Shown piece by piece: positions 19,716 through 52,010 of a DNA stretch of 56,823 nucleotides (its first letter is position 1; every line of letters begins with the position of its first letter). The stretch covers positions 1 to 56,823 of the forward strand of contig CAYRPX010000001.1 in assembly GCA_964426195.1 (NCBI GenBank), given 5' to 3'. Made by a program: the position numbers and the translations under genes. This stretch comes from an uncultured Salinivenus sp. (GTDB lineage: Bacteria > Bacteroidota > Rhodothermia > Rhodothermales > Salinibacteraceae). The notes beneath the pieces were generated by a model that had not been told where the DNA came from, did not search any database, and saw only the letters and a list, made by a program, of their open reading frames with translations.

Positions 19716-20279
19716 CTACTCCGTTTCAATTTCCACGATCATATCGACCTCGATCGGAATGTTGCTCGGAAGAGATCCCATCCCTACGGCAGCGCGGGCG
19801 TGTTTTCCACGGTCCTCAAACACTTCCGTCATCAAATCGGAGAACCCGTTTACAACCTCGGACTGCTGCGTAAACGTAGGGGTGGCATTCACCATTCCCT
19901 TGACTTTCACGACCTGTTCGACCCGGTTCAGGTCCCCGAGCTCCCGCTTCAAGGTGGAAAGTATTGAGATGCCGGTGAGACGTGCCGCTTCCTGGGCTTC
20001 CTCAACCGACAGTTCCTCCCCCACCTTTCCCGTCACAATCCCACCATCGGGCGTATCGGGGCCGTGACCCGAAAGAAAGATAAGGTCATCTTTCTGCACG
20101 GCCTTCACGTAGTTCGCGGTTGGCGCGGAGGGCTCCCCCAATTCGATGCCCATCTCCTGCAAGCGCTCTTCAATGTCGTATCCGTAGTCCGGCCCCTCCG
20201 TTTGACTCTGGTTCGTCTCCCCAGAGGTACACGCTAGGGAAAACAGAAGAAAAGGTACAAACAGAACGTACTTTTTCAT
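19716..20279 (-). CDS. Rid (YjgF/YER057c/UK114) family protein with lipoprotein signal
   Basis: MKKYVLFVPFLLFSLAC lipobox. ANYV, LSGHGP, VNGFSDL, GKHARAAVG (conserved Arg), PIEVD. Confidence 0.9.
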   Translation of the reverse strand: MKKYVLFVPFLLFSLACTSGETNQSQTEGPDYGYDIEERLQEMGIELGEPSAPTANYVKAVQKDDLIFLSGHGPDTPDGGIVTGKVGEELSVEEAQEAARLTGISILSTLKRELGDLNRVEQVVKVKGMVNATPTFTQQSEVVNGFSDLMTEVFEDRGKHARAAVGMGSLPSNIPIEVDMIVEIETE

Positions 20280-20395
20280 AGTATTCTTTCTTGGTTAAGA
20301 GTTATGTCTAGACGAAAGTTACCTGAATAATCAGAGGAAGAAAGCGAGCCAGTACCTTCGCCAGACGGGGCGGGGAGCAACTGAGCCCGCCGTCC

Positions 20396-22183
20396 CTACG
20401 GAGCAGCGGATGATGTATCCCGAACCTGTCTGACTTCTTTCACACTGACAGTGCTGGCTTCATTTCCGAAGTTCTGTCGCACATAGGTCGCCACTTGGGC
20501 GACCTCCTCGTCGCTCAAGAAGTCGTTCGCCGGCATTTCCCCATTGTAGCTTTCCCCGTTTACCTCAATGGGCCCCTCAAGGCCATTCACAATCACCGAG
20601 ATCAATCGCTCTTTGTCCCCAGTCACCCATTCGGTGCTCGACAACGGGGGATACCGCGGCGGCGCCCCACCGCCATCAGTCTGATGGCAGGACGCACAGT
20701 TTTGAACGTAGATCTTCTCTCCCCCGGAGAGCATTTCCTCACGCAGATTATCCTTCTCTTTGTGCGGAGTCCGGACGTTGGTCGCCGTCTGCTTCCGTTT
20801 CCGCATCTTGGCGATGTCGGATTCGCCAAACGTCCCTCCAGTGTAGATCACCCGCCAGATCTTTCCCTTATTATCCTCGGTGATGTACAGGGAGCCGTCC
20901 GGACCCGTAGCCAATCCTCCGGGTCGATGTTCGGCGTCGCTCGTGTGCACGATAGGATCAACACCAGCAAACCCATTCGCAAACACCTCCCATTCTCCTG
21001 ACTGCTTTCCATTCTCAAACGGCACGAACGCGATGAAGTACCCGAACTGGGGATAGGGATCCCGGATGGTGGATCCGTGAGAAGCGACAAAGGCTCCATT
21101 CTGAAAGTGACTGGGAAATTGCTCCCCCTGATAAAACATCAGGTCATTAGGTGCAAAGTGCCCCGGGAACCCGACCACTGGATCGTCGAACTGATCGCAT
21201 CTGCCAACTTTGTCCCCGTCCCCTCCATATTCAGGGGCCAGCACCTTCTTTTCCTGAAGTTGATCGTAGTAACAATAGGGCCATCCAACGTTTGACCCCT
21301 CGGTGTTTCGAACAAACTCCCCGGCCGGAAGCATCGCATTTTCCCAGGCCGTATACAAGTCCGGCCACAACCGGTCCAAATTATCTCGACCGTGCACGAC
21401 GCTGTATAACTGCCCGTCAGCCGGATTCCAGTCCATCGCGACGATGCTCCGGAGGCCAGTCGAAAACAACCGGCCGTCGGCCTGCGTCTGGTGGGTCTCA
21501 CTATCGTCAAACTGCCAGATTCCCCCGTGGTCCTCAAGGTACGGACAGGGATCCAAGCCCTCAACCCCTGGGGTCCGCTTGGGATCTTGGCAGGCATTAT
21601 TCGGAGCCCCGAACGGAATATACATATTCCCCTGCTTATCAAAAGCAATGGGCTTTGTGATGTGCTCGTGGGTCCCATGTTCGTGGTTGTCGACCACGAG
21701 GGTATCCGGCGGCCCTTCTGGGACCAATTTCCCGGGGGTCAACTCATACCGATAAACGTTAAGATCCGTGCTCACATAAAGATGTCCATTGTGAATCTGA
21801 GCCCCGGTGTGAAAATTCCCCTCATCCTCATCAAAGACCCCAAATTTACGGGTGATATCTGCCTTGCCATCTCCCGTCGTGTCGCGGAGCGCGACAATGC
21901 TCCCATCGTCGTAGCTTTGTTTTAGCTTGGCATAAATGTCTCCGTTATCGTTCACCGCCAAGTGCCGGGCTGGGCCAATACTATCCGCCACCACGAGGGC
22001 CTCAAACCCGTCCGGCAACGTCAAACCGCCATCATCTGGATCTCCGGAAAGCCTGCTGTCCCTCCCACAGCCGGAGAAAACCACGGCAATCAGAACCCCA
22101 AAACTGAATAGAAAAACGAATGGTATCTCCTGGAAATCGATGTAGTACCTAATCTCTCTATAAGAGTCTGTTCGTTTATTGAT
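20396..22183 (-). CDS. Glucose/sorbosone-type beta-propeller sugar dehydrogenase fused to C-terminal cytochrome c (lipoprotein; start uncertain)
   Basis: PARHLAV, TGLRS, GWPYCY, PGHFAPNDL, HRPGGLATGPDGSLYITED; CASCH heme motif with distal Met (EMPA); lipobox FSGC. The frame stays open upstream of GTG 22084 and includes ATC 22183, but has no ATG. Confidence 0.85.
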   Translation of the reverse strand: MNKRTDSYREIRYYIDFQEIPFVFLFSFGVLIAVVFSGCGRDSRLSGDPDDGGLTLPDGFEALVVADSIGPARHLAVNDNGDIYAKLKQSYDDGSIVALRDTTGDGKADITRKFGVFDEDEGNFHTGAQIHNGHLYVSTDLNVYRYELTPGKLVPEGPPDTLVVDNHEHGTHEHITKPIAFDKQGNMYIPFGAPNNACQDPKRTPGVEGLDPCPYLEDHGGIWQFDDSETHQTQADGRLFSTGLRSIVAMDWNPADGQLYSVVHGRDNLDRLWPDLYTAWENAMLPAGEFVRNTEGSNVGWPYCYYDQLQEKKVLAPEYGGDGDKVGRCDQFDDPVVGFPGHFAPNDLMFYQGEQFPSHFQNGAFVASHGSTIRDPYPQFGYFIAFVPFENGKQSGEWEVFANGFAGVDPIVHTSDAEHRPGGLATGPDGSLYITEDNKGKIWRVIYTGGTFGESDIAKMRKRKQTATNVRTPHKEKDNLREEMLSGGEKIYVQNCASCHQTDGGGAPPRYPPLSSTEWVTGDKERLISVIVNGLEGPIEVNGESYNGEMPANDFLSDEEVAQVATYVRQNFGNEASTVSVKEVRQVRDTSSAAP

Positions 22184-22198
22184 GACGTATCCTCACTG

Positions 22199-25100
22199 TT
22201 AACGATTAACCCTGAACAGTTTTACGGAGTCGTCATTGCGAGCGACGAGAATAAAAACCTCTCCATCGTGCTCCAATGACCGAATCGCGCGGGCCTCTCC
22301 CGGCACTGTAAATCCACTTTTTTGAGAGGCAATCTCTTCGTATCGACGGGCTGAATCCCGCCGGAGGGCAGCTCCGTAGCTTGCGTCATACGCCCCTGCC
22401 TGGGGCTTGACGGTCGTGAGATTTCCCCCCATCAGAATTTCTGCCCCCTGCTGATCGTCCACATCCTGCGCCAGGAGTCCGTACATCGGGGCCAATTGGG
22501 CCCGGAAAGGAAGGGAATCGAGGCGGAAGCTCCCATCCCCGTTATTCCACCCAACCATACTGGCCATCTGCCCGGTCCGGTAGTGGTGGGCTCGATCAAG
22601 CTGGTTCTGGTCGAACACGTCCGTGACCGTTTCTCCCGCGTACTCACTGAAGGTGGGGTACCGATTCTTCATCGACGGAAGCTCCTGAATAAGATTTTGG
22701 CGCAGCGCCATTGGAAACGGACCCTCCCCATCTCGATAGGTGGTTATAATCTGTTCAATTCCTTCGTCGGACCCAAAATCACCCGTCCACATCTGCAACG
22801 GGTGCTCTGGCCGAGCCCGAAACCGGGAATTCATTCCGTGATTTCCGGCGATGAGATCCAACGATCCATCCTCGTCCAAATCTGCCAGCGCTACGCTCTG
22901 CCACCACCCGTAGGTATCTTTTAGTCCGGTCGACTCCAAATCGGCCCGTTCAAGTTGTCCGTTCCGATTCCAGAAAATGGTGAGTGGCATCCACTCCCCT
23001 ACCACCACCAGATCCAAGTGCCCATTCCCATTGAGATCTCCCCAGGCCGCATCGGTCACTCCGGGGGTGTTCAGGTCCGGAGCTCGCAGCTCCGGCGCTC
23101 GCTGATTTGTAACTTCCCGAAATGTCCCTGTCCCATCGTTTTCCAGAAGAATCCCGCCAACGGGCATCCCATATCCAGCGGTGTCGCTCCTCAGAGTCAT
23201 CCGCACGCCTATGAAAAGGTCCTGGTCCCCATCTCCGTCAACATCCCCGGCTCGAACGGTGCCCGTCGGAATGTGCCCAACCTCCGGCCGTGGAAGTGCC
23301 TCCTCAGAGCGAACCAGCGTTCCTTCTCCGTCCGTCTGGTAGAAGCGATCGGCGAGGTGCGAGCTGCCCGCCGGAAACTCACTGCTTCCACTTGCCACAT
23401 AGAGCTCGGAAACGCCGTCCCTATCGGCGTCAAAGAGCACACAGCCGGTATCCTCGGAGGCTCGGTCGCCCTCCAGCACCGGTTGAGAAACACGCTCAAA
23501 TTGGTCACTGTCTCCGCGCACAAACAACGCGCCGGGCTGTCCGGCAGCCCCTCCCACGTACACGTCGTCGTGGCCATCCCCAGTTACGTCCCCGACACAG
23601 AGCGGAGGCCCCTCGGTGGAGCGCATGTGAAAGAGCAACGGGGACCGGCCAAAGTCACTGTGTGAGGATTCGTCGTGTTCCCAGTCAAATCCAACCTCTC
23701 CCGTAACGTCCTTCAGAAGTGCTTCATTCTTCTCCGTACGACGAGCAGGCAATACCCGGAAGTCGGTCCGGTTGGGGGAACGAGCCTCCTCCTGCCGAAG
23801 TGTGATCCGCTGATTCGTCTCCACATCCGTCCGGAGACCAAGACGACCGTCCGGCCAGCGGACCTTTAGAGTGTCAATCGTCGAAATTCCTGCGCCCAGT
23901 CCAAAGTGCAAGCGGGGATCCATCGACGACTGAAACCCCCGCTGCGGCATCTGCTCAGCGTAGAAGCGACGGTCATCGACGACAGCCTCGACCTGGGCGC
24001 CAACCCCAAACGTATTCGAGGACGCCCCGTCCAGGCCGACTTGGATCCAGCTGCGGTCCGGATGCTGCTCGCGAGTCCGGTTCCGGTAGACGAAGGGCCT
24101 CCCGTTGACGTTGTTAACGACCAGATCAAGGTCCCCATCCTGATCCAAATCCCCGTAGGCCGACCCGGTGGAAAAACCCGGCTCCCCGATCCCCCACTCG
24201 GACGCCCGGTTCTCAAACTGCAAATCGCCCTGATTCACGAACATATAGTTCGAAAGCGGCACCGAGGGCGTCTTCTGAGTGAGCTTCCCATAATCAATTC
24301 GGTTGTTTGAGATGACAGAACGCATGAACTCTTTCTGGTTCAGGCGCACCAAAAGATCCTTATCGGTGACGTCCCGATAAAACCCGTTCGGGACGAAGAT
24401 TTCGCGAGACCCATCGAGCGTAAAGTCCGCAATGAGCCCACCCCAACTCCAGCCGCTGGCGTCAAGCCCGGCATAGCGCCCAATCTCACTAAACGTCCCG
24501 TCGCCGTTGTTGTATTGAAGCGTATTTCGGGGAAACTTACGATGGTATCCCATCTCCACCTCGGACTGAAACTGCTTCCAGCCCACAAAATCAGCGACTG
24601 TTTTCACTCGCTCCTCACTCTTGGGGAGCATGTCCGTGACAAAAATCTCGGGATACCCATCCGTATTCAGATCAGCAATGTCCCCGCCCATGGATGTCGT
24701 ACTGATGCTGCTGAGCGTGTCCGACAGCACCTCACTGAATGTGCCATCCCCGTTATTTACGTAGAAGTAGTCCCGCTCGAAAAAATCGTTGGAGACATAA
24801 AGGTCCATCCATCCGTCTCGATTCACATCCCCCACGGACACCCCTAGACCAAAGCCAATCTCACTACTATATATCCCTGAACCCTCAGTAGCCTCTACGA
24901 ACTCACCTCCTTCATTTCTGTAGAGTCGATCTCCACCCCTGTCGTCTCTTATGTTTCTTAAATTATTTTTTACATTGTACTTTTCTACTGGCTTTGATGC
25001 ATAGTTGTTTAGAATATACAGGTCCAAATCTCCGTCATTGTCATAGTCGAAAAACGCAGAGTGGATAGTATTTCCAACGTTAGAGATCCCAAACTCTTCA

Positions 25101-25615
25101 GCTCGCTCGGTAAACGTTTCATCCCCATTGTTGATGAACAATTCGTTTTCTCGCCGCGGTTCCACAAAAGGGCCGGAGTTGGCAACATATATATCCAATA
25201 GACCATCCCCGTTCACGTCCGCCATACTGACGCCAGTAGACCACGGCATCTCTCCTCCCACTCCTGCTTCCTCAGTGATGTCCTCGAATTCAAAGCCGCC
25301 CTTATTGAGATAGAGTTTATTGCTCGTCTGATTTGCAACCAAATAGAGATCGGGACGACCGTCACCATTTACATCTCCAATAGCGACCCCACCGCCAGCA
25401 TAAAAGTTTCGATATGTAAATACGTTGAATGAATTATTATATGTCAGATTGTTTGAGAACTCTATGTTGGTTGATGGTTGATACAGCCGCTCAAACACCT
25501 CCGGTTCGGTACCGGGAACGTACCGACACCCGGAAACAACCAACAGAACACATAGAGTCAGGGCAGAAGCGCAAAAACGGCTTCTCCACCACCTCCTTCC
25601 TCGACGAGAGGACAT
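22199..25615 (-). CDS. VCBS/FG-GAP repeat protein with ASPIC/UnbV domain (CRTAC1-like lipoprotein)
   Basis: Many DxNxDGxxD repeats; FGVGAQV...RGFQSS..PRLHFGLG...VRWPDG ASPIC motif; lipobox VSGC. Confidence 0.9.
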   Translation of the reverse strand: MSSRRGRRWWRSRFCASALTLCVLLVVSGCRYVPGTEPEVFERLYQPSTNIEFSNNLTYNNSFNVFTYRNFYAGGGVAIGDVNGDGRPDLYLVANQTSNKLYLNKGGFEFEDITEEAGVGGEMPWSTGVSMADVNGDGLLDIYVANSGPFVEPRRENELFINNGDETFTERAEEFGISNVGNTIHSAFFDYDNDGDLDLYILNNYASKPVEKYNVKNNLRNIRDDRGGDRLYRNEGGEFVEATEGSGIYSSEIGFGLGVSVGDVNRDGWMDLYVSNDFFERDYFYVNNGDGTFSEVLSDTLSSISTTSMGGDIADLNTDGYPEIFVTDMLPKSEERVKTVADFVGWKQFQSEVEMGYHRKFPRNTLQYNNGDGTFSEIGRYAGLDASGWSWGGLIADFTLDGSREIFVPNGFYRDVTDKDLLVRLNQKEFMRSVISNNRIDYGKLTQKTPSVPLSNYMFVNQGDLQFENRASEWGIGEPGFSTGSAYGDLDQDGDLDLVVNNVNGRPFVYRNRTREQHPDRSWIQVGLDGASSNTFGVGAQVEAVVDDRRFYAEQMPQRGFQSSMDPRLHFGLGAGISTIDTLKVRWPDGRLGLRTDVETNQRITLRQEEARSPNRTDFRVLPARRTEKNEALLKDVTGEVGFDWEHDESSHSDFGRSPLLFHMRSTEGPPLCVGDVTGDGHDDVYVGGAAGQPGALFVRGDSDQFERVSQPVLEGDRASEDTGCVLFDADRDGVSELYVASGSSEFPAGSSHLADRFYQTDGEGTLVRSEEALPRPEVGHIPTGTVRAGDVDGDGDQDLFIGVRMTLRSDTAGYGMPVGGILLENDGTGTFREVTNQRAPELRAPDLNTPGVTDAAWGDLNGNGHLDLVVVGEWMPLTIFWNRNGQLERADLESTGLKDTYGWWQSVALADLDEDGSLDLIAGNHGMNSRFRARPEHPLQMWTGDFGSDEGIEQIITTYRDGEGPFPMALRQNLIQELPSMKNRYPTFSEYAGETVTDVFDQNQLDRAHHYRTGQMASMVGWNNGDGSFRLDSLPFRAQLAPMYGLLAQDVDDQQGAEILMGGNLTTVKPQAGAYDASYGAALRRDSARRYEEIASQKSGFTVPGEARAIRSLEHDGEVFILVARNDDSVKLFRVNR

Positions 25616-25933: not shown

Positions 25934-25939
25934 CACTAT

Positions 25940-27256
25940 CTACTCACTCCACTCAGAGGCGGCGATGCCATTGAGATCCCAGACGACATCTCCTGCGCGC
26001 ACCGTGAGCTCCGTCACGAACTTCTGTGACCCTTCCCGCCGGTCGCCGTCCACGTCGACAAAGCCAAAGTTGCCCTCCCGGAGATCAAGGACAGCCACGT
26101 CCGCCGGGGCGCCCACGTCGAGGTTTCCGAGCTCCGGACGCTGAATGATCTGGGCCGGCTTCCAGGTGGACGCTCGAATGACTTCTTCCAGTCCCATGCC
26201 CAACTCCATCATCTTCGACATGACGTTCGCCATGTTCTTCATGCCATCGTTCATGCTGCCCGAGTGCAGGTCCGTACTGATCGCATCTGGCCAGAGGCCC
26301 GCCTGAGTGGCGGGCACGGCCGCATCGTAGTCAAAACTTCCACCTCCATGCCCGACATCGAATATGATGCCTCGGTCCTGCGCCTCCGGTACAAAGGACC
26401 GCAGCTCATGCTGCTGATCCACAATCGACTGTCGTCGATCCTCCTGATCCAGAAGCGCGTACGCGTGGGTGAAGATGTCCCCGGGGCGGAAGTAGTCAAA
26501 GAAGAGCTTTTCAATGGAGAGGGGAGGGGAGGCCCCACCAAAGTCGACCATCACGGGGATGTCAGCGCGCTCGCCCGCTTCAACAGCCCGCTCGGTCGGT
26601 GTCCAGTCGTGCCCTCGATAGTGGGCGAGCTTCACCCCGACCACGACATCCGAGTATTGCTCCGCCGCCATCGCCGTCATCCGCGGATTCATGTCTCGCG
26701 GATCTTGCTCGGGCAGTCCCTTCATGCCCGCGCCGACAATGTTGATGAATGCCAGCACCCGCGTATCGGCGTGCCGGACCGTCTGGTCGATGAAGGTTTG
26801 CATGTTGCGCCATCCGGGTCCGCCCACATCTACAATCGTCGTGACCCCGGAGCGAAACGTATGTGCATCGGGTTGGAGGGAGGAGAAGCTATTGCTGAGG
26901 TAGGCATTCTCCTGCGTGCCATAAAACACGTGGGCGTGAAGGTCAATGAGCCCCGGCGTCACGTACCGCCCGGAGGCATCCACGACCTTCTCGGCACGGG
27001 ACGGAGAAATGTCCGACGCCACGGTGGCGATCGTATCTCCCGCAATGCCGATGTCCATGACTTCGTCGACGTCGTTCTTCGGATCGATGACGTGTCCGTC
27101 ATTGACGAGCAGGTCCAGGTCCTGCGCCTGGGCCGACCCGACAAGTCCCAGCATGCCGACGGCAAGCGCCACGGCCAGGAGCGCCGTGGAGAAGGAAGAC
27201 CTTAAAATCGTAACGAGCACGCCCGTGCCCGCCTCGAATGAATTCGCAATGTCCAT
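25940..27256 (-). CDS. Secreted amidohydrolase/deacetylase, COG3964 (EF_0837/Atu3266-like), paralog 2
   Basis: PGLIDLHAH, GVTTIVDVG, GVKLAH, PGDIFTH, DVGHGGGSF, ISTDLH; Sec signal ending AQA. Confidence 0.88.
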   Translation of the reverse strand: MDIANSFEAGTGVLVTILRSSFSTALLAVALAVGMLGLVGSAQAQDLDLLVNDGHVIDPKNDVDEVMDIGIAGDTIATVASDISPSRAEKVVDASGRYVTPGLIDLHAHVFYGTQENAYLSNSFSSLQPDAHTFRSGVTTIVDVGGPGWRNMQTFIDQTVRHADTRVLAFINIVGAGMKGLPEQDPRDMNPRMTAMAAEQYSDVVVGVKLAHYRGHDWTPTERAVEAGERADIPVMVDFGGASPPLSIEKLFFDYFRPGDIFTHAYALLDQEDRRQSIVDQQHELRSFVPEAQDRGIIFDVGHGGGSFDYDAAVPATQAGLWPDAISTDLHSGSMNDGMKNMANVMSKMMELGMGLEEVIRASTWKPAQIIQRPELGNLDVGAPADVAVLDLREGNFGFVDVDGDRREGSQKFVTELTVRAGDVVWDLNGIAASEWSE

Positions 27257-31759: not shown

Positions 31760-32266
31760 CTACTCTTCGAGGGCCGCAATCACGTCCATCTCCACGAGCG
31801 AATCGCCGGGGACGCCGCCGTACGTCGCAACCGTCGAGCGCACCGGGGGATTTTCCCCAAACCGGCCCCGAAAGACCTCGTTCATGGGATCATAATCCTT
31901 TAGGTCGTGCAGATACACCGTTACTTTCAGGGCCTGCTCCATGGACGAGCCCGCCTTTTCGAGCCGTTCTTGCATTTGATTCAGGACGTGATCGGTATGG
32001 TCCTGCACATCCCCGTCGAAATGGGCGCCGATGCCGGCCAGATACACCAATCCATCGTGAACGATGACGCCAGAAAAGAGAGGATCATCCTGATGCGTCA
32101 CGACCTTTCCCTCCCGTTGCTTTCCCAACTTACTCTCGTCCCGAGATGACGCCTCAGCCGACTGCGAGGTCACGGCGCCGAGACCGAAGGAGGCCAAATA
32201 CGCCCCCGCCTGCTTAAAAAACGAGCGGCGGTTCTCGTCGGAGTTGTCCTGTGTGGATTGACTCAT
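31760..32266 (-). CDS. RidA-family enamine/imine deaminase with Tat signal
   Basis: NRRSFFKQ twin-Arg motif, hydrophobic stretch and AEA site. KVTVYL, MNEVF, PPVRSTV (catalytic Arg), LVEMD. Confidence 0.9.
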   Translation of the reverse strand: MSQSTQDNSDENRRSFFKQAGAYLASFGLGAVTSQSAEASSRDESKLGKQREGKVVTHQDDPLFSGVIVHDGLVYLAGIGAHFDGDVQDHTDHVLNQMQERLEKAGSSMEQALKVTVYLHDLKDYDPMNEVFRGRFGENPPVRSTVATYGGVPGDSLVEMDVIAALEE

Positions 32267-33965: not shown

Positions 33966-36212
33966 CTACCAGTTAAACGTATAGGTGTACTTGAGCATCA
34001 CGGCCCGCTGACTGCTAAGGGGAAGTCGAGGCCCCATTTCGACGAACCGGCCGGTGTTGAGCCGCTCGTTATAGACGAGGTACAGGTCGTTGCCCTGCCT
34101 CGGGTTGTACCGGAACCGGAGGTTGCCGATGGCCACCTCCCGGGCGCTGTTATACTGAACAAACGCCGAAATCGAGTACTCGACGTTCGGAGTAACCTCG
34201 GCGCGGAGGCGCCCGACGTGGGCAGTAAGTTGTTGGTTCCGGTCCGGAAATCCGATTCGATTCAGCTGATAAAAGCCGCTGATCCGCAGGTAGCGGGAGA
34301 CATTCCAGGTGGGGTTGACCTCGAGGATGGAGCGCCATCCGTCGTAGAAGCTCCCCCCGATCACTTCGATGTCGGTTCGCAGGTCCCACCCGCTGGGCAT
34401 CCCGTAGCTGATTTCCCCATTATAGAAGGCGTAGCGGCCCGCCGGCACGCGCGCCCCTTCCGGCAAAGCAAAGGCTCCCCGCAGGTCCTCCACCCGGCGG
34501 GTGGCCTCGAGAATGAGGCTGTGGCCGGCATTGCCCGTCATCTCCCACTCCGGGCCAAGCTCCAGAGACTGAAGCGTCCCGTCTGCGTTCCGGACATAGA
34601 CCTCTCCCTCCAGATTGAGTCGGTGCCGCTGGATCGAGGAGCCCTCACCAGGGACCCAGCCGTAGCCAATCCGGTCGCCGAACCGAAAGTAGTTGTCTCT
34701 CAGCTCCAGCCCCACACCCGGCTCGTAGCGACGGCCGGCCCGGTCGTACCGCAGATTGTAGTTGAATCCGCTGTAGGCGCGGTCCTCCCACCGGAGGTGC
34801 ATCCGCGTTGGATCGAGAGAGGCAAACTCGTTGGGGATTCCGTCTTGGAAGGTCTGCGCCCACTTGGCCGTCAGGTACTGCTGGCTCTCGACTCGAAAGA
34901 GGCCGTCGAGCCCGTAGGCGACGTTGTAGGTGCCGTCCAGTCCCAGTCGTGGAATCAGGATGCCGCCAACGTGCGAATCTTCGTTCATAACGTCCCGCTG
35001 GACACGCACCACCCCGAAGTTCTCCGACGGCAGCGTCTCCCCGCCCGTCCCAATCTGGGACTCACGGGCCGTTTGCATGTCCAAAATTCCGATGTCCCAG
35101 GGCCCTTGGCGGCCGACCATGCGGGCTCCCCCCAGGATGCGGACCTGTTTCCCCTGGTGGAGCCCAATGCGGCGGCTGTAAAAAAGGCGGTTGGGCTGGC
35201 CGAAGCCGAAAGCGAAGGTGCTGGCCCGCTCGAGGAAAAACCGCCGTTTCTCCGGGAAGAAGAGAGGGAACCGGGTGAGGTTCACCTGCTCGTCGTCGGC
35301 CTCGACCTGGGCGAAGTCGGTGTTGAGCGTCAGGTCGAGGGTAAAGTTGGAGGTAAGCCCGTACTTGACATCCAGCCCGGCGTCATAGGTCGGGTCGGTC
35401 TGTCGCTCATAGGCGGTCTCAGCGTTGTTCAAGACGGACTGCTGGCCAACTCCGCCCAGCAGGTAGGGCGTCACGCGAAGAGGCGGTCTCGGCTCAACAT
35501 CTTCAAAGACGATGTCCTGAAATTGCGAAGGCTTGTACCTGCTCCAGTTTCCCCATTCGGGCGGAATTTCGGGGAACACAATCCATTCCGACTCCCGGGC
35601 CACAAATCGCAACATTGAAAGGCCCATTGTAACGTGGGCCTTCTCTACAGTAAAGCGAAGACTGGAAACCGGAATGCGCATTTCAGCGAACCAGCCGTCC
35701 TCGTGTTGGCGAACCTCCACGCTCCAGAAGGTATCCCGGTCAAAATCGATCGGACGATCTCCAGAAGCGTCGTTGAAGACGGCCAGGTCCGTTCGCAGTC
35801 CGGTGGGCGTCGTCAAAAACCCCAGCGCGTTCTCGTTGTCGTTAAAGGTGTCCAGTACGAGCCCGAAATAGTCCGAATCCCCCTCAAAGTAGTCCCGACG
35901 AAAAGATGGAGTCGAGGGGGCGAGGCGATCGTAGCACCGGCAGGCCGCGTAGAGATAATCCTCTGTATAGCCGATGAGTAATTCCGTGTTCTCGGTGGGA
36001 TCCGCCCCAAAATTGGGCATGTGCTGGACGGCCGGAAGCCGCCGCGCATCCGTCCAGGCGGACTCCTCAATCCGGCCATCCAACTCGATCTCGCCCTTAA
36101 TCTTTGGAATGACCAGCTCATCCGGGCTGGATTGGCCAGAGGCTTCAGGAGCGAAGCCCGCTACCATCATCGGAACCACCAATATTACTACGAGCCGGGT
36201 CCTGTGACGCAT
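33966..36212 (-). CDS. CBM9-like + DUF5916 outer-membrane protein
   Basis: IELDG.IEE..W, LDTFND, GWFAEMRIP.SSLRF, LDLTLNTDFAQVEAD...NLTRFPLFFPEKRRFFLE, FYSRRIG; aromatic C-terminus KYTYTFNW. Confidence 0.88.
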   Translation of the reverse strand: MRHRTRLVVILVVPMMVAGFAPEASGQSSPDELVIPKIKGEIELDGRIEESAWTDARRLPAVQHMPNFGADPTENTELLIGYTEDYLYAACRCYDRLAPSTPSFRRDYFEGDSDYFGLVLDTFNDNENALGFLTTPTGLRTDLAVFNDASGDRPIDFDRDTFWSVEVRQHEDGWFAEMRIPVSSLRFTVEKAHVTMGLSMLRFVARESEWIVFPEIPPEWGNWSRYKPSQFQDIVFEDVEPRPPLRVTPYLLGGVGQQSVLNNAETAYERQTDPTYDAGLDVKYGLTSNFTLDLTLNTDFAQVEADDEQVNLTRFPLFFPEKRRFFLERASTFAFGFGQPNRLFYSRRIGLHQGKQVRILGGARMVGRQGPWDIGILDMQTARESQIGTGGETLPSENFGVVRVQRDVMNEDSHVGGILIPRLGLDGTYNVAYGLDGLFRVESQQYLTAKWAQTFQDGIPNEFASLDPTRMHLRWEDRAYSGFNYNLRYDRAGRRYEPGVGLELRDNYFRFGDRIGYGWVPGEGSSIQRHRLNLEGEVYVRNADGTLQSLELGPEWEMTGNAGHSLILEATRRVEDLRGAFALPEGARVPAGRYAFYNGEISYGMPSGWDLRTDIEVIGGSFYDGWRSILEVNPTWNVSRYLRISGFYQLNRIGFPDRNQQLTAHVGRLRAEVTPNVEYSISAFVQYNSAREVAIGNLRFRYNPRQGNDLYLVYNERLNTGRFVEMGPRLPLSSQRAVMLKYTYTFNW

Positions 36213-36670: not shown

Positions 36671-36705
36671 GAAAAGAGTGCCAGCGGGGGGAACCGCTGG
36701 CACTC
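36671..36705 (-). terminator. Rho-independent terminator downstream of susD
   Basis: 12-bp perfect stem GAGTGCCAGCGG/CCGCTGGCACTC followed by TTTT on the minus strand. Confidence 0.7.
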
Positions 36706-36806
36706 CTTGGGCACGAACGGGAAGGAAAAAACCTTGCCTAAGGAGAGAGGGAGACAGGTCGTCTCGTCCCTCTCACCTCATCGGGGCATAGGGGTTTGAT
36801 CTCCCG

Positions 36807-38438
36807 CTATTGTTGATCTCCCAGCCCTTCAGAGGCCGCGGCATCTCGAGCATCCCACCACACCTTTGTGTTATTCTGATCGGGACCATTCACCAGGAGG
36901 TCACTCGCATTTTCCGTGGCCTGCGTATTGTTATTGTACTCACTGGTCGTAAAGCTCATCCTTCTGAAGATGTCGTCCTCCTCAAGATTCGGGTTGCGGG
37001 AGCTAATGATGGGGTAGAGCTTCGGATACCCGGTGCGTCGAAGCTCCGCGAACGCCTCCAGGGAGACGGGATAGAGGGCCAGCCACTTCTGGGTGATGAT
37101 CTGCTCCAGCTTCGTCTCGAAGTCGGCGCTCGACTGAAACTTCACCGGAATGTCGCTCATCGGCCCGGAATTCCACCGATCATCCGGATCTGCAGGAGTA
37201 CTGGTCCGATTGAGATACGCATCAACCTCGCTTGAAGAGGCCCCCGTCCTGTCCTCCGTAAGGGACATTCGGATTCCCTCTTCGTACATGTCTTGGGCCG
37301 ACCCTCCCATGTTCCAGCCAAGGAGGGCTCCCTCGGCGCGCAGGAGGTAAATCTCCGCCGCGTGCATGACCTCCACCGGAGGGTTCGTTCCGCCCCGTCC
37401 CGGCGGCAGGTACGGCTCCGCCATGTCGGAATAGGTGGAATTAAGCTCCGTTCCTTTGTCTTCCCGGTCGAGACCATTCCTCATGCCCTCGAACAGGCTC
37501 CCATCGCCATCCTGGTCCTGCCCACTCTGCGCGGGACTAAAGAACGCGTCGATTCGAGGATCGTCGTATCCCTCGAGCAGGCTTTCCATCGACGCACTCA
37601 TCCGGAACTCTCCCCAGTTGGTGATGACGTTGTAGGCGTTTTCATTATTCTGACTCGTAAAGAGATTCGCGTTGTGGGCATTGCTCTCCATCACGCCCGG
37701 GCCTCGAGTAATCGCCTCTTCGGCCTCCGTCTGGGCCTTATCCGGCATCTGGTGCCGGATGCGCATCGCCGCCCGGAGCTGGAGGGAATTCGCAAACCGC
37801 ATCCACTTGTTTATCGCATTATCGACGTAAATCAGGTCATTGCTTCCAAACCCGCTGGCCCCTGAATTATTTTGCAACGTACTGACGGCACTGTCCAGCC
37901 GGTCGAAGAAATCCAGATAAATGTCTTCCTGCGCATCGTAGGGCACGGTTTCCTCTCCGTTCCCGAACTCCGAATATGGGATTGGCCCCCAGTAGTCCGT
38001 CATGCGCTGATAGATTTCAACCCTCCAGATATTTGCAATTGCAAGCCGCGCCGGCAAGTCATTCTCTGCAGCGAAGTCCCTGACAAATTTCAGCTGGGGA
38101 GCCGCCGTGCCGTAGAAGTTATTCCAGCCCGAATCGATCCAGTCGGCCACCTCGATGTACTGGTCGGAATCAAAATACGGGGCCGTGGTCGCAAAATACT
38201 GGGTATAGAGATCGCCAAATAACGACTTGTGGATCTGATGCCCGACGCCGGCTCCGGCGTGCATCCCGGCCCACTGGGATCGGGCGAAGGCCTGGCCAAG
38301 CGTGGTGGCATCCACGTTCGCCGCCGAAAGTTGCCGATCCGGGGTATTCAACTCCTCGTAGTGATCCGTACATCCGGGGAGGAAGACGAACAGTGCCAGA
38401 ATGAAGAGACTCGCGAGTTTTGTCGTAATACTTTTCAT
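36807..38438 (-). CDS. susD: SusD/RagB family lipoprotein (SusD-like 2 type)
   Basis: Lipobox LPGC; TDYWGPIPYS, KWMRFANSL.LR, DDPR, AEIYLLRAE, IITQKWLA, RRTGYP, KVWWD; follows susC. Confidence 0.93.
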   Translation of the reverse strand: MKSITTKLASLFILALFVFLPGCTDHYEELNTPDRQLSAANVDATTLGQAFARSQWAGMHAGAGVGHQIHKSLFGDLYTQYFATTAPYFDSDQYIEVADWIDSGWNNFYGTAAPQLKFVRDFAAENDLPARLAIANIWRVEIYQRMTDYWGPIPYSEFGNGEETVPYDAQEDIYLDFFDRLDSAVSTLQNNSGASGFGSNDLIYVDNAINKWMRFANSLQLRAAMRIRHQMPDKAQTEAEEAITRGPGVMESNAHNANLFTSQNNENAYNVITNWGEFRMSASMESLLEGYDDPRIDAFFSPAQSGQDQDGDGSLFEGMRNGLDREDKGTELNSTYSDMAEPYLPPGRGGTNPPVEVMHAAEIYLLRAEGALLGWNMGGSAQDMYEEGIRMSLTEDRTGASSSEVDAYLNRTSTPADPDDRWNSGPMSDIPVKFQSSADFETKLEQIITQKWLALYPVSLEAFAELRRTGYPKLYPIISSRNPNLEEDDIFRRMSFTTSEYNNNTQATENASDLLVNGPDQNNTKVWWDARDAAASEGLGDQQ

Positions 38439-38644
38439 GATAACAAACCCTATTTGGTAGAGATCTCAGAATAATGCTGCCGTCGAACAGTCGTCAGTGC
38501 AGGCGATCCGAAGCCCCTTCTACCCTCCCCTGCTGTCGTGAATGCGACCCTGTTCACATGGTTCGCACCCGAAAACAGGGGAGGGCAGAATGTTACATTC
38601 AAGCTCTCCCTCGGATGGCTTGTGAGGATTGCCTCAATCGGCAC

Positions 38645-41600
38645 TTAGAACTGAATGTTAAGGTTGGCACCGAACGATCGGGTCGTGGGCGGCTGGAAGG
38701 ACTCAAAGCCTTCGGCTCCTTTACCCGTATTGGTCAGGATATCCGGATCGACCCGGCTCGAGGCTCTGTAGATCCACAACAGATTTCTTCCTACGAGACT
38801 GACGTTCACGGCCGACACAGGAAGCTCACCCAGCTGGGACTGGTCAAACTGGTATCCCAGCGTCACCTCTCGGAGCTTGGTGGCCGTAGCATCCGCCGAG
38901 AAGGCCTCGCCCACCGGCGTATTCCGTCCCCCCATGTTGCGCCAGAAGTTCTGGGCAGTCGTCGAGGGCACCTCTCCTCCATCCGCCGCTACGGCCTCCT
39001 CGTCAGAAAAGGCGGTCTCTCCAAAGACGAATCCGCCGCCTCTCCCGTCGAGCGTTCGCTGGAGATTACCGTCCCCGGCAAGCACGGCATTCGTAAAGGA
39101 ACCAACCTGGCCTCCCTGTCGGTGATCAATCAGGAAGCTGAGATTGACGTTCTGAAAGGAGAGATTGCTCCTGAAGCTTCCTTCCCAATCGGGATTGAAG
39201 TCGGCGATCTTCACCGTCTCTCCATCCGTGAGGCGCGGAATCCCATTGGGTTCTACGATCACACGGCCCTGATCGTCCCGGGCAAACCCTCGGGAGAAGT
39301 ACTGCTGGAAGGGTTTCCCCTCTTCGATGAAGTTCGTTCCCAAGAACGATCCCCCGATGGCGACCCTCGGCCGCTGTTCGGAAATTTTCTTGACCAGATT
39401 CTGGTTGTGAGAGAAGTTGACCGTCGACGTCCACTCAAAGCCCTCCGTCCGGACCGGAGTGCCCGTCAGGGTCAGCTCGATCCCCTGGTTCCGAATGTTT
39501 CCTCCATTGGTGAAGGCGTTGCTCGCACCCGAAGCGACCGGAAGCTGGAGGGTAAACAGCTGATTTCGCGTCTCCGTGTGATAAACACTGGCATTCAGCT
39601 CGAGCCGGTTCTGCAGGGTCCGAATTTGCGCCCCAAACTCCCAGGACTCCGTCTCCTCCGGTTTCAGGTCCTCGGCCGGCAGGGTACCACTCAGCTCAAG
39701 GAATCCTGTTCGCCCCCCCGCAGAGAAGCTCGCGGAGCGAGTCAACTGAAAGGGTGGGGCTTCATTTCCGACTCGTGCCCACGAGCCCCTAAGCTGAAAG
39801 TAATCGATGGCATCCGGGAAGGAGATCAGATCGGTAAGAACCGCTGAGAGTCCAACCGAGGGGTAAAAGAAGGACCAGTTGTCGGGAGGCAGGGTCGAGC
39901 TCCAGTCATTCCGACCGGTCAGGGTCAGGAACACCGCGTCCTGCCAACCGATCTCACCCCGGCCATAGAGCGACTGCACGTCCCGGGGCGACCCTTCCGA
40001 TTCGCCGACGCCAACATTCTGCGTATTCCCCAGCGAGAAGAAGTTGGGAACGACCATTCGGGCTCCGGTACTTGCACTCAAATACCGGTTGCGTTCCTGA
40101 GTAATGGTTGCACCGCCCGTGAGGTCAAGGCTGAAGTCCTCAAGAACGTCGTCGTTCGCATAGTTCAGGATCGCATCCCCAGTCCATTTCGTGCCAAAGC
40201 TTTTGCTTTCACTAAACTGACCCTGAGGGGAGATAATGTAGGTGTTGTTGTAATGCCTCGTCTGATCTTGTGAGGCCCCAATGTCCGCCGATGCCCGGAG
40301 CTGGAAATTAAGCTGATCGGTGAAATCGTAGGTCGCCGAGGCGAGCCCCAGAACCCGATTGCTTTCGTTCTCGTTCAGGTTGCGATTGAGAGTCCAGTAG
40401 GGATTGGCGCCTCCGTTCGACCCGGGATTCCAGAAGTGCTGACGGAGCAGACCGTCTTGGTTCGTGTACTCGAATTTCTCCACGTGGGCCGTGCGGATGT
40501 TTCGTGGCAGGCGAAGGGCATGCCGCATGGGGTTCGAGAAGCTCTCTCCCGTCGACAATTCATTTTCAATGGTTTCATTGATGTAGTTCAGCTTGCCGTC
40601 CATCGACAAGTTGTCGGTGGGCTGCCCATTTACCCGCACCTGAAAATTGTGCTTCCGGATCGAATTGTTCGGCACCGTTCCGGTCGCCTCAGTCAGCGTG
40701 TAAGAAACGACCCCCTGCAGGTTCTCCTGGCCGGCCCGGTATTTCAGGTTGGTCGACGAGTTATATCCAATCTGAAACACGTCCCGGACGTTGTCCGGCT
40801 GGGGAGTAAAGGAGTACTCCTGCGGGACCGACCCTTGTTCTTCCGGCGTCCCATTGTCGAGCGCCGGCGACCAGTGTTCGACGGTCTGCCCGTTCATTTC
40901 CGGGCCCCAGGAGGCCTCGGACGACGGATTGTAATTCCCGTTGAGGCCCTGGCCGTACTGATTCTGATAATTGGTGGTGATGATCGGCTGTCGGGCCATG
41001 ATGTTCTGCGTGAAGCTAAACTGCCGGGTCCCTTCCTCCGCCGTTTCGGTGGTAACGAGGATGGCGCCATTCTGGGCTTCATTTCCATATAGCGCCGCTG
41101 CATTGGGACCCTTCAGGACCTCAATGCTCTCGATGTCGTCCTGATTGAGGTCTCCAAGCCCTCCCCGAGTGGGAACGCCGTCAACCACAATGAGGGGCTG
41201 GCTGGAGCCAGAAATGGAACGGTTTCCTCGAATAATGAGCCGGACATTGCCGCCGACGCCCGTCCCCGCCCGATTTACTCGCAGCCCGGAGACCCGCCCT
41301 GCCAGGGAGTTTCCGACGTTCAACTCTCGAGCCTCCTGGATGTCCGCCCCTTCTACGTCCTGCGTACCATAGGAGAGAGATCGTTCTTCCCGTTCCACTC
41401 CCAGGGCAGTGACGACCACATCCTCGAGCGCCACCTCGGCGGGCTGCAGCTCAAAGTCCGCAACCACCGTTTCACCGGCCTCGACGTCTACTTCTTGCGA
41501 TTGTGCTTCGAAGCCGACAAACGAGGCATTCAGCACATACGTGCCGGGGTCCACGTCTATGGAATAACTCCCTTCGGTGTCCGTCGTCGTGCCTCGCTGG

Positions 41601-41788
41601 GTCCCCTGGATGACGATGTTGACGCCAGGAAGCGTCTCTCCCGAGGAGCCGTCGACGACCGTGCCCTCAATCGTTCCCTGCTGCGCCAGAGCCGTCGAGC
41701 AGAAGAACAGGGATCCGAGAAGAACGGCGGCAACCAGGGAAAGCACTCTTGAAACCCCAAAAGCACGATCCGGAACGTCCGTTGCCAT
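38645..41788 (-). CDS. susC: SusC/RagA TonB-dependent transporter
   Basis: TLPGVNI, VVVTALG, IRGNRS, DIESIEVLKGPNAAALYG, GRNDWSSTLP, DLKPEET, terminal NIQF. Confidence 0.96.
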   Translation of the reverse strand: MATDVPDRAFGVSRVLSLVAAVLLGSLFFCSTALAQQGTIEGTVVDGSSGETLPGVNIVIQGTQRGTTTDTEGSYSIDVDPGTYVLNASFVGFEAQSQEVDVEAGETVVADFELQPAEVALEDVVVTALGVEREERSLSYGTQDVEGADIQEARELNVGNSLAGRVSGLRVNRAGTGVGGNVRLIIRGNRSISGSSQPLIVVDGVPTRGGLGDLNQDDIESIEVLKGPNAAALYGNEAQNGAILVTTETAEEGTRQFSFTQNIMARQPIITTNYQNQYGQGLNGNYNPSSEASWGPEMNGQTVEHWSPALDNGTPEEQGSVPQEYSFTPQPDNVRDVFQIGYNSSTNLKYRAGQENLQGVVSYTLTEATGTVPNNSIRKHNFQVRVNGQPTDNLSMDGKLNYINETIENELSTGESFSNPMRHALRLPRNIRTAHVEKFEYTNQDGLLRQHFWNPGSNGGANPYWTLNRNLNENESNRVLGLASATYDFTDQLNFQLRASADIGASQDQTRHYNNTYIISPQGQFSESKSFGTKWTGDAILNYANDDVLEDFSLDLTGGATITQERNRYLSASTGARMVVPNFFSLGNTQNVGVGESEGSPRDVQSLYGRGEIGWQDAVFLTLTGRNDWSSTLPPDNWSFFYPSVGLSAVLTDLISFPDAIDYFQLRGSWARVGNEAPPFQLTRSASFSAGGRTGFLELSGTLPAEDLKPEETESWEFGAQIRTLQNRLELNASVYHTETRNQLFTLQLPVASGASNAFTNGGNIRNQGIELTLTGTPVRTEGFEWTSTVNFSHNQNLVKKISEQRPRVAIGGSFLGTNFIEEGKPFQQYFSRGFARDDQGRVIVEPNGIPRLTDGETVKIADFNPDWEGSFRSNLSFQNVNLSFLIDHRQGGQVGSFTNAVLAGDGNLQRTLDGRGGGFVFGETAFSDEEAVAADGGEVPSTTAQNFWRNMGGRNTPVGEAFSADATATKLREVTLGYQFDQSQLGELPVSAVNVSLVGRNLLWIYRASSRVDPDILTNTGKGAEGFESFQPPTTRSFGANLNIQF

Positions 41789-51982: not shown

Positions 51983-52010
51983 TGCCGTTAACATACCTTT
52001 TCGGGGCTAC

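What the first reader, a model, noticed from the sequence alone, without database searches (positions are those of the whole stretch)
19716..41788. SusC/D locus without glycoside hydrolases that may encode a fully periplasmic oxidative amino-sugar pathway
Seen: 11 co-oriented genes (susC, susD, DUF5916, lactonase, Rid, two SelA/DgaE-like PLP enzymes, two COG3964 amidohydrolases, VCBS protein, sugar dehydrogenase-cytochrome c, Rid). None is a recognisable GH, and every enzyme has a Tat, Sec or lipoprotein signal. No PTS, sugar kinase, KDG kinase or aldolase is present. Established: Salmonella DgaE is a cytoplasmic SelA-like D-glucosaminate-6-P ammonia-lyase fed by a PTS; COG3964 enzymes such as Atu3266 are deacetylases; RidA hydrolyses enamine/imine products of PLP lyases; the Pseudoalteromonas ong pathway converts oxidised GlcNAc to KDG by deacetylation then deamination. 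Inference: N-acetylhexosamine -> lactone (dehydrogenase, electrons to cytochrome c) -> aldonate (lactonase) -> hexosaminate (deacetylase) -> enamine (PLP lyase) -> 2-keto-3-deoxy acid + NH3 (Rid), all outside the cytoplasm and without phosphorylation. I know of no described periplasmic version.
Basis: partly seen in the sequence, partly recalled or inferred. Interest (0 to 1): 0.9.

Follow-up and report, generated by a model that had tools for sequence, protein, structure and literature searches.

The report
Periplasmic amino-sugar deamination pathway
A salt-loving bacterium carries a transporter-linked cluster of sugar-acid enzymes whose export signals are conserved across several phyla, and which likely strips acetate and ammonia from an oxidised amino sugar outside the cytoplasm, chemistry so far described only inside the cell.

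Summary
The locus is real: 12 (not 11) co-oriented genes in a Salinibacter genome. Its core (twin-arginine DgaE-like PLP enzyme, signal-peptide COG3964 amidohydrolase, exported Rid) recurs in 57 of 85 loci from Bacteroidota, Balneolota, Rhodothermia, Acidobacteriota and Planctomycetota. Export signals are conserved (RR plus hydrophobic stretch in 93 of 96 PLP enzymes; heuristic, not SignalP) and absent from 4 of 4 rhizobial/haloarchaeal homologues. The PLP enzymes lack DgaE's phosphate-binding arginines and enamine-protonating His163, which fits an unphosphorylated substrate and a need for Rid. A lactonase–Rid fusion (89 clusters), chitin-binding SusDs among the nearest solved relatives, and KDG/KDGal kinase and GalNAc genes beside some copies point to an oxidised N-acetylhexosamine ending as a 2-keto-3-deoxy acid. 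Weak points: no substrate is shown; the dehydrogenase is AA12-like (preferring other sugars), occurs in only 34 of 85 loci and here lacks a standard start before its lipobox; Cap15, an oxygenase-decarboxylase, is as close a structural relative as DgaE. Verdict: new variant of the cytoplasmic ong pathway, built from non-homologous enzymes and likely periplasmic.

The parts
38645..41788 (-). SusC-type TonB-dependent transporter (1047 aa from ATG 41788)
   Evidence: TIGR04056 580 bits, cut-off 368; start chosen
36807..38438 (-). SusD-like lipoprotein; nearest solved relatives include chitin/GlcNAc-binding AqSusD (8J0P) and CusD-I (5J90)
   Evidence: PF12741; E 1e-77 and 2e-74; CusD-I ligands from PMC5127042 passages
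33966..36212 (-). DUF5916 protein with Sec-like signal; an insertion that is not part of the conserved module
   Evidence: PF19313; no homologue in the other loci; 72% paralogue on C157
32335..33357 (-). SMP-30/gluconolactonase lipoprotein; predicted aldonolactonase
   Evidence: PF08450 E 2e-42; five putative metal-site residues invariant in 16 of 16 (residue roles recalled)
31760..32266 (-). Rid-family imine/enamine deaminase with twin-arginine signal (RRSFFK)
   Evidence: PF01042; Arg143 and Glu159 invariant in 53 of 53 aligned members (equivalence to RidA Arg105/Glu120 recalled)
30427..31653 (-). SelA/DgaE-like PLP enzyme 1 (408 aa), twin-arginine signal
   Evidence: TIGR01437 168 bits, below cut-off 385; own subclade
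29004..30236 (-). SelA/DgaE-like PLP enzyme 2 (410 aa), twin-arginine signal, PLP Lys248; 59.5% identical to enzyme 1
   Evidence: TIGR01437 182 bits, below cut-off; fold nearest Cap15 8T7J and DgaE 7LC0
27532..28845 (-). COG3964 amidohydrolase 1 with Sec signal; predicted de-N-acylase
   Evidence: PRK09237 422 bits, cut-off 371; nearest folds 8JE0, 8WZY, 2ICS, 2OGJ
25940..27256 (-). COG3964 amidohydrolase 2 with Sec signal; 82% identical tandem duplicate
   Evidence: PRK09237 418 bits; single copy in G031 and G033
22199..25615 (-). FG-GAP/ASPIC-UnbV lipoprotein, likely a surface binding partner of SusC/D
   Evidence: PF13517, PF07593; family in 14 of 85 loci, mostly beside SusC/D
20396..22084 (-). 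AA12/sorbosone-dehydrogenase-like beta-propeller fused to class I cytochrome c; lipoprotein signal needs a non-standard start upstream of 22084
   Evidence: PF07995, PF00034; TrAA12 6I1Q E 2e-8
19716..20279 (-). Rid-family lipoprotein; 58% identical to the Rid part of a lactonase-Rid fusion
   Evidence: PF14588; Arg162 and Glu177 invariant in 29 of 29

Best explanation
This is a conserved cluster of exported enzymes that likely converts an unphosphorylated N-acyl amino-sugar acid, probably from GlcNAc or GalNAc, into a 2-keto-3-deoxy sugar acid plus acetate and ammonia in the periplasm. Steps: (1) SusC/D takes up a small HexNAc-containing ligand (inferred). (2) The PQQ-type dehydrogenase-cytochrome c and the lactonase make the aldonate, or it arrives already oxidised (inferred, weakest step). 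(3) The COG3964 amidohydrolase removes the N-acetyl group, leaving a D-configured amino acid (inferred from family). (4) The Tat-exported DgaE-like PLP enzyme eliminates the C3 oxygen; without His163 it would release free enamine (inferred from the DgaE H163A mutant). (5) Exported Rid proteins hydrolyse the enamine/imine (inferred). (6) The keto-deoxy acid is imported (BASS/TRAP in relatives) for KdgK/Eda, or is cleaved by an exported RraA aldolase that this genome encodes elsewhere (inferred). Shown here: gene content, synteny, conserved export-signal-like N-termini and active-site residues. The two PLP subtypes and duplicated deacylases may split gluco- and galacto-substrates (guess).
For: Module: Rid in 63, amidohydrolase plus Rid in 57, plus dehydrogenase in 33 of 85 loci, many cut by contig ends. 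Signals: PLP enzyme RR+h 93 of 96; Tat Rid 58 of 61; amidohydrolase 60 of 69 (7 incomplete or at a contig edge); Rid lipoprotein 29 of 29; RraA 22 of 22; lactonase 15 of 16; none in 4 of 4 PLP and 2 of 2 scored Rid controls; TatC present. DgaE residues named in PMC9529869, mapped: Arg at the 301/332/346 sites in 1, 14 and 0 of 96; His163 in 0 of 96; HH loop in 0 of 96, while the Rhizobium control keeps HH, R301 and R332. PLP Lys and Asp in 96 of 96. H163A DgaE releases free enamine. Lactonase-Rid fusion inside the module in G414 and in 89 of 92 clusters returned. Chitin-binding SusDs rank first and third among solved relatives. Eda and a KdgK-like gene directly upstream of a PLP gene, DgoK, AgaS, GH109, AGE and NagA beside copies in G435; KdgK-like gene downstream in G033. 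Cytoplasmic haloarchaeal homologues sit with a PIG-L deacetylase, sugar dehydrogenases and Rid. The ong pathway does this chemistry and also needs a Rid.
Against: No activity, growth or expression data. Both PLP enzymes score far below the DgaE cut-offs and are as close to Cap15 (26% identity, TM 0.76) as to DgaE (27%, 0.74). The dehydrogenase is in only 34 and the SGL lactonase in 16 of 85 loci. The characterised AA12 enzyme prefers D-glucosone and L-fucose and needs an equatorial C2 hydroxyl, which HexNAc lacks. In this genome the dehydrogenase has no standard start before its signal. No GH18, GH20 or LPMO among 198 neighbouring proteins scanned at E<=1e-20. Only one of CusD-I's two platform tryptophans is kept (W280 as W275; W65 as V65, by a numbering offset I inferred), and SusD similarity is a weak guide to ligand. 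18 of 31 module genomes also have NagA. The kinase and GalNAc neighbours come from two genomes. The signal test is a permissive heuristic: 1 of 5 cytoplasmic control N-termini passed its hydrophobicity cut. A family-specific His342 (86 of 96) might replace His163.
Confidence: 0.55

Rival explanations
1. The core (deacylase, PLP lyase, Rid) scavenges N-acyl-D-amino acids or other beta-hydroxy or thio D-amino acids in the periplasm, giving simple 2-keto acids; the dehydrogenase and lactonase serve an unrelated sugar or aldehyde.
For: The core is far more frequent than the oxidation genes (57 vs 33 of 85 loci). OngC also deaminates D-serine and D-threonine. Atu3266's reported substrates are non-sugar acetylated acids (recalled; paper not held). 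Peptidases and beta-lactamase-fold hydrolases are sporadic neighbours.
Against: The lactonase-Rid fusion, the RraA aldolase in 22 loci (needs a 4-hydroxy-2-keto acid), the HexNAc-type SusD and the KDG/KDGal kinase neighbours all point to a polyhydroxy acid.
Confidence: 0.15
2. The same pathway, but the PLP lyase removes a 3-O substituent rather than water: a (1->3)-linked sugar (Gal-beta-1,3-HexNAc, uronosyl-beta-1,3-HexNAc) or the lactyl ether of MurNAc, so it would cut a glycan bond without any glycoside hydrolase.
For: After C1 oxidation and deacetylation, C3 is the beta carbon of a D-amino acid (chemistry). This would explain SusC/D, the periplasmic site and the conserved lack of GHs. DgaE's phosphate pocket is replaced by an open set of residues with a Trp in 85 of 96. 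Sulfatases occur in 11 of 85 loci; a muramoyl amidase and a lactate racemase are neighbours in one locus each.
Against: No direct evidence. MurQ is not lost in module genomes: 25 of 31 over cut-off vs 271 of 401 in the phylum sample. SusC/D are present in only 15 of 85 loci. The model was not available for pocket analysis.
Confidence: 0.12
3. The PLP enzyme works like Cap15: O2-dependent decarboxylation of the amino-sugar acid to a shorter aldonamide, which the amidohydrolase then hydrolyses as an amidase.
For: Cap15 (8T7J) is the top fold match and acts on a beta-hydroxy amino acid (PMC7497351 passages). The nearest solved amidohydrolase, 8JE0, is labelled 'Amidase'.
Against: It gives no role to Rid, which keeps its Arg in all 82 aligned members and lies in 63 of 85 loci. 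It does not explain KDG/KDGal kinase neighbours, and no dehydratase is part of the core.
Confidence: 0.1
4. The N-terminal extensions are not working export signals, and the enzymes act in the cytoplasm or on the cell surface.
For: No SignalP run and no fractionation; many Tat motifs deviate from S/T-R-R-x-F-L-K. Bacteroidota lipoproteins can be surface-exposed (recalled).
Against: RR is nearly invariant, followed by a hydrophobic stretch. Three signal types co-occur consistently across phyla, and a c-type heme motif in 29 of 29 dehydrogenases implies export (heme c attachment outside the cytoplasm is established knowledge).
Confidence: 0.05

Closest known systems
Pseudoalteromonas prydzensis ong pathway (OngB/OngC/OngD/KdgK; PMC9537276)
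   Same: TonB-dependent uptake, then deacetylation and PLP deamination of an unphosphorylated HexNAc aldonate to KDG, with a required Rid protein.
   Different: Ong acts in the cytoplasm and uses a D-aminoacylase-like OngB and a fold-type III OngC, fed by LPMO and GH20. Here the enzymes are COG3964 and fold-type I DgaE-like, carry export signals, and come with a dehydrogenase and lactonase, without LPMO or GH20 in the locus.
[quoted passage not shown]
   Same: Same PLP fold and family (TM 0.74, 27% identity); PLP Lys/Asp and His112/Tyr116 positions kept.
   Different: Below the NCBIfam cut-offs; no PTS; phosphate-binding Arg301/332/346 and His162/His163 not conserved; twin-arginine signal present.
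Cap15 O2- and PLP-dependent monooxygenase-decarboxylase (8T7J)
   Same: Top fold match (TM 0.76, 26% identity); substrate is a beta-hydroxy amino acid.
   Different: Cap15 is a cytoplasmic antibiotic-biosynthesis enzyme; here the context is catabolic and includes Rid.
COG3964 amidohydrolases (Atu3266 2OGJ, EF0837 2ICS, 8JE0, 8WZY)
   Same: PRK09237 passed; HxH, Lys, His, Asp metal site and GHGGGSF loop kept; TM 0.82-0.85.
   Different: Sec signal; the His that follows strand 5 in 2OGJ is Asp in 59 of 60; natural substrate of the family not known to me (recalled).
AA12 PQQ-dependent pyranose dehydrogenase (CcPDH, TrAA12 6I1Q)
   Same: Six-blade propeller joined to a cytochrome; motifs matching the PQQ and Ca ligands are invariant.
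   Different: Bacterial lipoprotein with a C-terminal c-type heme; Asn431 position is Ser; substrate unknown.
Bacteroidota polysaccharide utilization loci (SusC/D; F. johnsoniae ChiUL, PMC5127042)
   Same: SusC/SusD pair, with SusD in the group containing CusD-I.
   Different: No GH, lyase or esterase CAZyme in the locus; the enzyme module often stands without SusC/D (15 of 85 loci have both).

Membership tests
DgaE (D-glucosaminate-6-P ammonia-lyase) | NF047797 score >= 600 / TIGR01437 >= 385 | tested here: not met
   150-161 and 168-182 bits
DgaE (D-glucosaminate-6-P ammonia-lyase) | Strictly conserved His162/His163 | tested here: not met
   HH in 0 of 96; His at the 163 site in 0 of 96; enzyme 2 has His only at the 162 site
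DgaE (D-glucosaminate-6-P ammonia-lyase) | Arg301/332/346 phosphate cluster | tested here: not met
   Ser/Ser/Trp and Ser/Gly/Trp in the window enzymes; Arg in 1, 14, 0 of 96 (mapped)
DgaE (D-glucosaminate-6-P ammonia-lyase) | Fold-type I PLP site (Lys, Asp) and DgaE-like fold | tested here: met
   K248 and D220 in 96 of 96; TM 0.74 to 7LC0
DgaE (D-glucosaminate-6-P ammonia-lyase) | Linked PTS and DgaF aldolase | tested here: not met
   None in the locus or among recurring neighbours
Selenocysteine synthase SelA | TIGR00474 >= 268 | tested here: not met
   45-49 bits
Cap15-type oxygenase-decarboxylase | O2-dependent decarboxylation activity | not testable with these tools
   Fold similarity only
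COG3964 / PRK09237 amidohydrolase | PRK09237 >= 371 and binuclear metal ligands | tested here: met
   418-422 bits; ligands kept, one His->Asp change
COG3964 / PRK09237 amidohydrolase | Deacetylase activity on an N-acetyl amino-sugar acid | not testable with these tools
   No assay; the Atu3266 paper could not be read
ong pathway | OngB (D-aminoacylase-like) and OngC (fold-type III) homologues | tested here: not met
   Amidohydrolases score 64 vs cut-off 340 on PRK09061 and pass PRK09237 instead; PLP enzymes are fold-type I whereas OngC is type III
ong pathway | Cytoplasmic location; LPMO and GH20 supply | tested here: not met
   Export signals; no GH20 or LPMO in the locus or among 198 neighbours; a GH20 and a GH18 exist elsewhere in the genome
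Rid imine/enamine deaminases | Active-site Arg (RidA Arg105) and Glu120 | tested here: met
   53 of 53 and 29 of 29 aligned members; numbering recalled
AA12-like PQQ dehydrogenase | PQQ/Ca ligands (R430, D451, H539, H560; R273, H363, R621) | tested here: inconclusive
   Matching residues invariant in 27-29 of 29, but assigned by motif through TrAA12 without the CcPDH sequence; N431 is Ser
Classical PUL | SusC/SusD pair plus CAZymes | tested here: not met
   SusC/D present; no GH, PL or CE family hit among the 12 genes

The most novel reading that the evidence does not exclude
A GH-free way of taking glycans apart: the periplasmic module oxidises and deacetylates a reducing-end N-acetylhexosamine, and the Tat-exported PLP enzyme then cleaves the 3-O-linked sugar (or the lactyl ether of MurNAc) by beta-elimination. 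Rid releases the ammonia and an exported RraA aldolase splits the KDG, giving a PLP-dependent glycan lyase inside a complete phosphorylation-free periplasmic Entner-Doudoroff-like route.
Probability: 0.13. Interest if true: 0.92.

Novelty: new variant of a known kind. Interest (0 to 1): 0.68.

Why it matters
If right, it assigns a physiological role to two orphan families (DgaE-like PLP enzymes without the phosphate site, and COG3964 amidohydrolases) and shows Rid-type enamine control and PLP catabolism operating in the periplasm. It would give aquatic and soil Bacteroidota, Balneolota, Rhodothermia and Acidobacteriota (9 of 400 near-complete genomes in the phylum sample) a route to release ammonia and respire electrons from amino sugars without importing or phosphorylating them, which matters for nitrogen remineralisation from chitin, peptidoglycan and glycoproteins. 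It also explains a class of SusC/D loci that PUL tools miss because they hold no CAZyme. Cultured carriers exist (Flagellimonas, Maribacter, Arenibacter, Catalinimonas, Ohtaekwangia), so the test is direct.

Tried and rejected
MurQ-replacement idea: rejected as the main role, since MurQ is kept in module genomes. NagA-replacement: not supported (18 of 31); none over cut-off in this 68%-complete genome. PQQ synthesis: pqqC not found in 0 of 1, 0 of 31 and 0 of 5 genomes, but no positive control rang, so inconclusive. A linked chitinase or hexosaminidase: none among 198 of the 209 neighbour families chosen within 2.5 kb of the core; the other 11 had been scanned; only single GH123, GH3 and GH63-like hits. 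Assembly error upstream of the dehydrogenase: not supported. Promoter/terminator scan: at chance level (8 vs 6.4 and 15 vs 18.3). Expression: no RNA holder listed. Earlier scan findings: three look-ups, none returned. ESM Atlas for DUF5916 and the profile search of representatives were not available. The DgaE structure paper and the Atu3266 paper are not held. One literature search was swamped by an unrelated term. In one search I tallied the Arg332 site one column off; one search corrects it. No complex prediction was run, as no binding claim is made.

Full report
What is there. Between 19716 and 41788 lie 12 minus-strand genes: susC, susD, DUF5916, an SGL lactonase, a Rid, two SelA/DgaE-like PLP enzymes (59.5% identical), two COG3964 amidohydrolases (82%), an FG-GAP/ASPIC lipoprotein, a GSDH-cytochrome c fusion and a second Rid. 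The genome is a 68%-complete assembly. Its nearest named homologue (77%) is labelled Salinibacter sp., and 12-17% of residues are acidic. No GH, PTS, kinase or aldolase family hits in the span. A GH32-like propeller is divergently placed next to susC, and sulfatases, an esterase, a GH9 and a PIG-L protein follow.

Signals. Both PLP enzymes and the first Rid begin with twin-arginine sequences, both amidohydrolases with Sec-type leaders ending AQA/Q, and the lactonase, FG-GAP protein and second Rid with lipoboxes. The dehydrogenase is the exception: its hydrophobic stretch and FSGC are in frame, but no ATG, GTG or TTG precedes them. Contigs from four runs of one study show no difference there, so it uses an ATC/ATT/ATA start or is mis-targeted in this lineage; the G031 and G033 orthologues start with ATG. 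SignalP was not available, so I scored the sequence upstream of each fold with a heuristic. RR plus a hydrophobic stretch: 93 of 96 PLP enzymes (two others have RK, one looks frameshifted) and 55 of 61 Tat-type Rids (3 more hydrophobic only). Hydrophobic leader: 60 of 69 amidohydrolases (2 none, 7 incomplete or at a contig edge) and 22 of 22 RraA proteins. Lipobox or leader: 28 of 36 dehydrogenases (2 none, 6 incomplete), 29 of 29 Rid lipoproteins and 15 of 16 lactonases. Homologues from Rhizobium, Mesorhizobium and two haloarchaea start 8-10 residues before the fold (4 of 4), and 2 of 2 scored Rid controls have no signal; a third Rid control did not align. One of 5 cytoplasmic control N-termini passed the hydrophobicity cut, so the test is permissive. 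TatC is present.

Distribution. One of 32 other genomes of the genus has the PLP enzyme, and 9 of 400 near-complete genomes of the phylum sample. I compared 85 loci: the window, four relatives and the 80 best of 595 GTDB hits; many are cut by contig ends, and kin are not independent. Counts by single-linkage family: Tat Rid 60, amidohydrolase 60, dehydrogenase-cytochrome 34, Rid lipoprotein 28, BASS transporter 23, RraA aldolase 22, SusD 18, SGL 16, CBM9-like 15, FG-GAP 14, sulfatase 11. Amidohydrolase plus Rid occur in 57, with the dehydrogenase in 33, with SGL as well in 10; SusC with SusD in 15. G031 and G033 keep the window's order without DUF5916, and DUF5916 has no homologue in any other locus held. 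Nine further genomes repeat the module, one of 2.6 Mb with four PLP genes. A 40-row tree (27 of the loci, chosen by hand) puts the two window enzymes in separate parts; enzyme 2 lies in a supported seven-row clade spanning five families, so the pair is an old duplication. This genome also holds a third, longer subtype with an amidohydrolase on C352, RraA with two twin-arginine enolase-type dehydratases and BASS on C152, and kdgK-like and eda genes on C62.

The PLP enzyme. The model (pLDDT 81.5) matches Cap15 (TM 0.76) and DgaE (0.74) about equally, and both enzymes fall far below the DgaE cut-offs. PMC9529869 (parts 1-2 of 3 read) places the substrate phosphate at Arg301/332/346 (manual docking) and shows that His163 protonates the enamine; the H163A mutant stays active but releases free enamine. 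Mapped through the HMMER alignment (that paper numbers the PLP lysine 217 where the chain gives 213, the other numbers agree), these sites hold Arg in 1, 14 and 0 of 96 family members and His163 in none. The Rhizobium control keeps HH, R301 and R332. The PLP Lys and Asp are invariant. This predicts an unphosphorylated substrate and free enamine release, which fits the Rid genes, whose catalytic Arg is kept in 53 of 53 and 29 of 29 aligned members. A conserved His342 could take over His163's role; I could not inspect the pocket.

The other enzymes. The amidohydrolases pass PRK09237, fold like 8JE0, 8WZY, 2ICS and 2OGJ and keep the metal site, with one His replaced by Asp in 59 of 60. That Atu3266 is a deacetylase of D/R-configured acids is recalled; the paper is not held. 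The dehydrogenase's only enzyme relative among solved structures is TrAA12. Residues matching the PQQ and calcium ligands of CcPDH (PMC6881789 passages) are invariant by motif, but CcPDH prefers D-glucosone and L-fucose and needs an equatorial C2 hydroxyl (PMC4332668 passages). Direct oxidation of HexNAc is therefore the weakest step.

What points to an amino sugar. First, in G414 a lactonase is fused to the Rid orthologue (58% identical to the window's) inside the module; 89 of 92 clusters returned have both domains, and the named ones are Chitinophagaceae or Chitinophagia, so this may be one event. It ties lactone hydrolysis to imine hydrolysis. Second, chitin-binding AqSusD and CusD-I rank first and third among SusD's solved relatives; CusD-I binds GlcNAc to chitohexaose (PMC5127042 passages), and one of its two tryptophans is kept. 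Third, in G435 eda and a kdgK-like gene directly precede one PLP gene, DgoK lies near another, and AgaS, tagatose-pathway genes, GH109, AGE and NagA flank others; G033 has a KdgK-like gene downstream (below cut-off). Fourth, cytoplasmic haloarchaeal homologues sit with PIG-L deacetylase, sugar dehydrogenase and Rid genes. Against: no GH18, GH20 or LPMO among 198 scanned neighbours; MurQ is not depleted; NagA is present in 18 of 31.

Mechanism. I commit to: uptake of a small HexNAc-containing ligand; oxidation and lactone opening (or arrival already oxidised); de-N-acetylation; PLP beta-elimination at C3; Rid hydrolysis to KDG or KDGal and ammonia in the periplasm; then import, or aldol cleavage by the exported RraA protein. 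Location about 0.9, elimination chemistry about 0.65, whole statement 0.55. No step is shown experimentally.

Known systems and novelty. It works like the cytoplasmic ong pathway (PMC9537276: part 1 of 9 and passages read) but shares neither OngB nor OngC, and it fails the DgaE membership tests. Ten full-text searches of the open library listed no description of an exported version. Passages of the OngB follow-up (PMC12017989), an Aeromonas chitin study (PMC11653859) and a Bacteroidota fitness study (PMC13440311) do not mention it; PMC7497351 (passages) served for Cap15 and PMC12524618 (passages) only for a reference. Subscription papers and all supplements were not seen. I rate it a new variant of a known kind, interest 0.68. 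The bolder reading, PLP cleavage of a 3-O-linked sugar or lactyl ether, is not excluded (0.13).

Noticed in passing
G000:C152:726-7339 and C2:38331-41417: Twin-arginine enolase-superfamily (galactonate-dehydratase-like) genes sit with a signal-peptide RraA aldolase, BASS and SusC/D (C152) and with a second dehydrogenase-cytochrome c (C2), suggesting a wider set of exported, phosphorylation-free sugar-acid pathways in this genome.
   Followed up: partly
L119:11514-13079 (G414); P0122-P0210: Lactonase-Rid fusion protein of about 520 aa, 89 clusters, named members in Chitinophagaceae or Chitinophagia.
   Followed up: yes
G000:C352:1-1668; L014:9992-11617; L060:13025-14668: A third, long PLP subtype with a C-terminal domain of about 136 aa that has no Pfam hit.
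   Followed up: partly
window 22084-22200: The dehydrogenase lipoprotein signal has no ATG/GTG/TTG start; candidate ATC, ATT or ATA codons lie in frame upstream.
   Followed up: partly
G435 (L105-L110): A 2.6-Mb, 98%-complete genome with four PLP genes above E 1e-80, at least seven amidohydrolases and five Rid genes in two regions, beside GalNAc and KDG/KDGal genes.
   Followed up: partly
window 42208-56763: Neighbouring carbohydrate genes: GH32-like propeller, two sulfatases, AXE-like esterase, Gfo/Idh/MocA oxidoreductase, GH9, PIG-L protein, GAF histidine kinase; their link to the locus was not tested.
   Followed up: no
window 33966-36212: DUF5916 gene flanked by two 600-bp gaps; it has several paralogues in the genome and draws many unlike contigs when runs are laid.
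   Followed up: partly
L100, L103 (haloarchaeal plasmids): Cytoplasmic DgaE-like genes with PIG-L deacetylase, sugar dehydrogenases, glutamine amidotransferase and Rid: a possible unphosphorylated amino-sugar pathway in haloarchaea.
   Followed up: no
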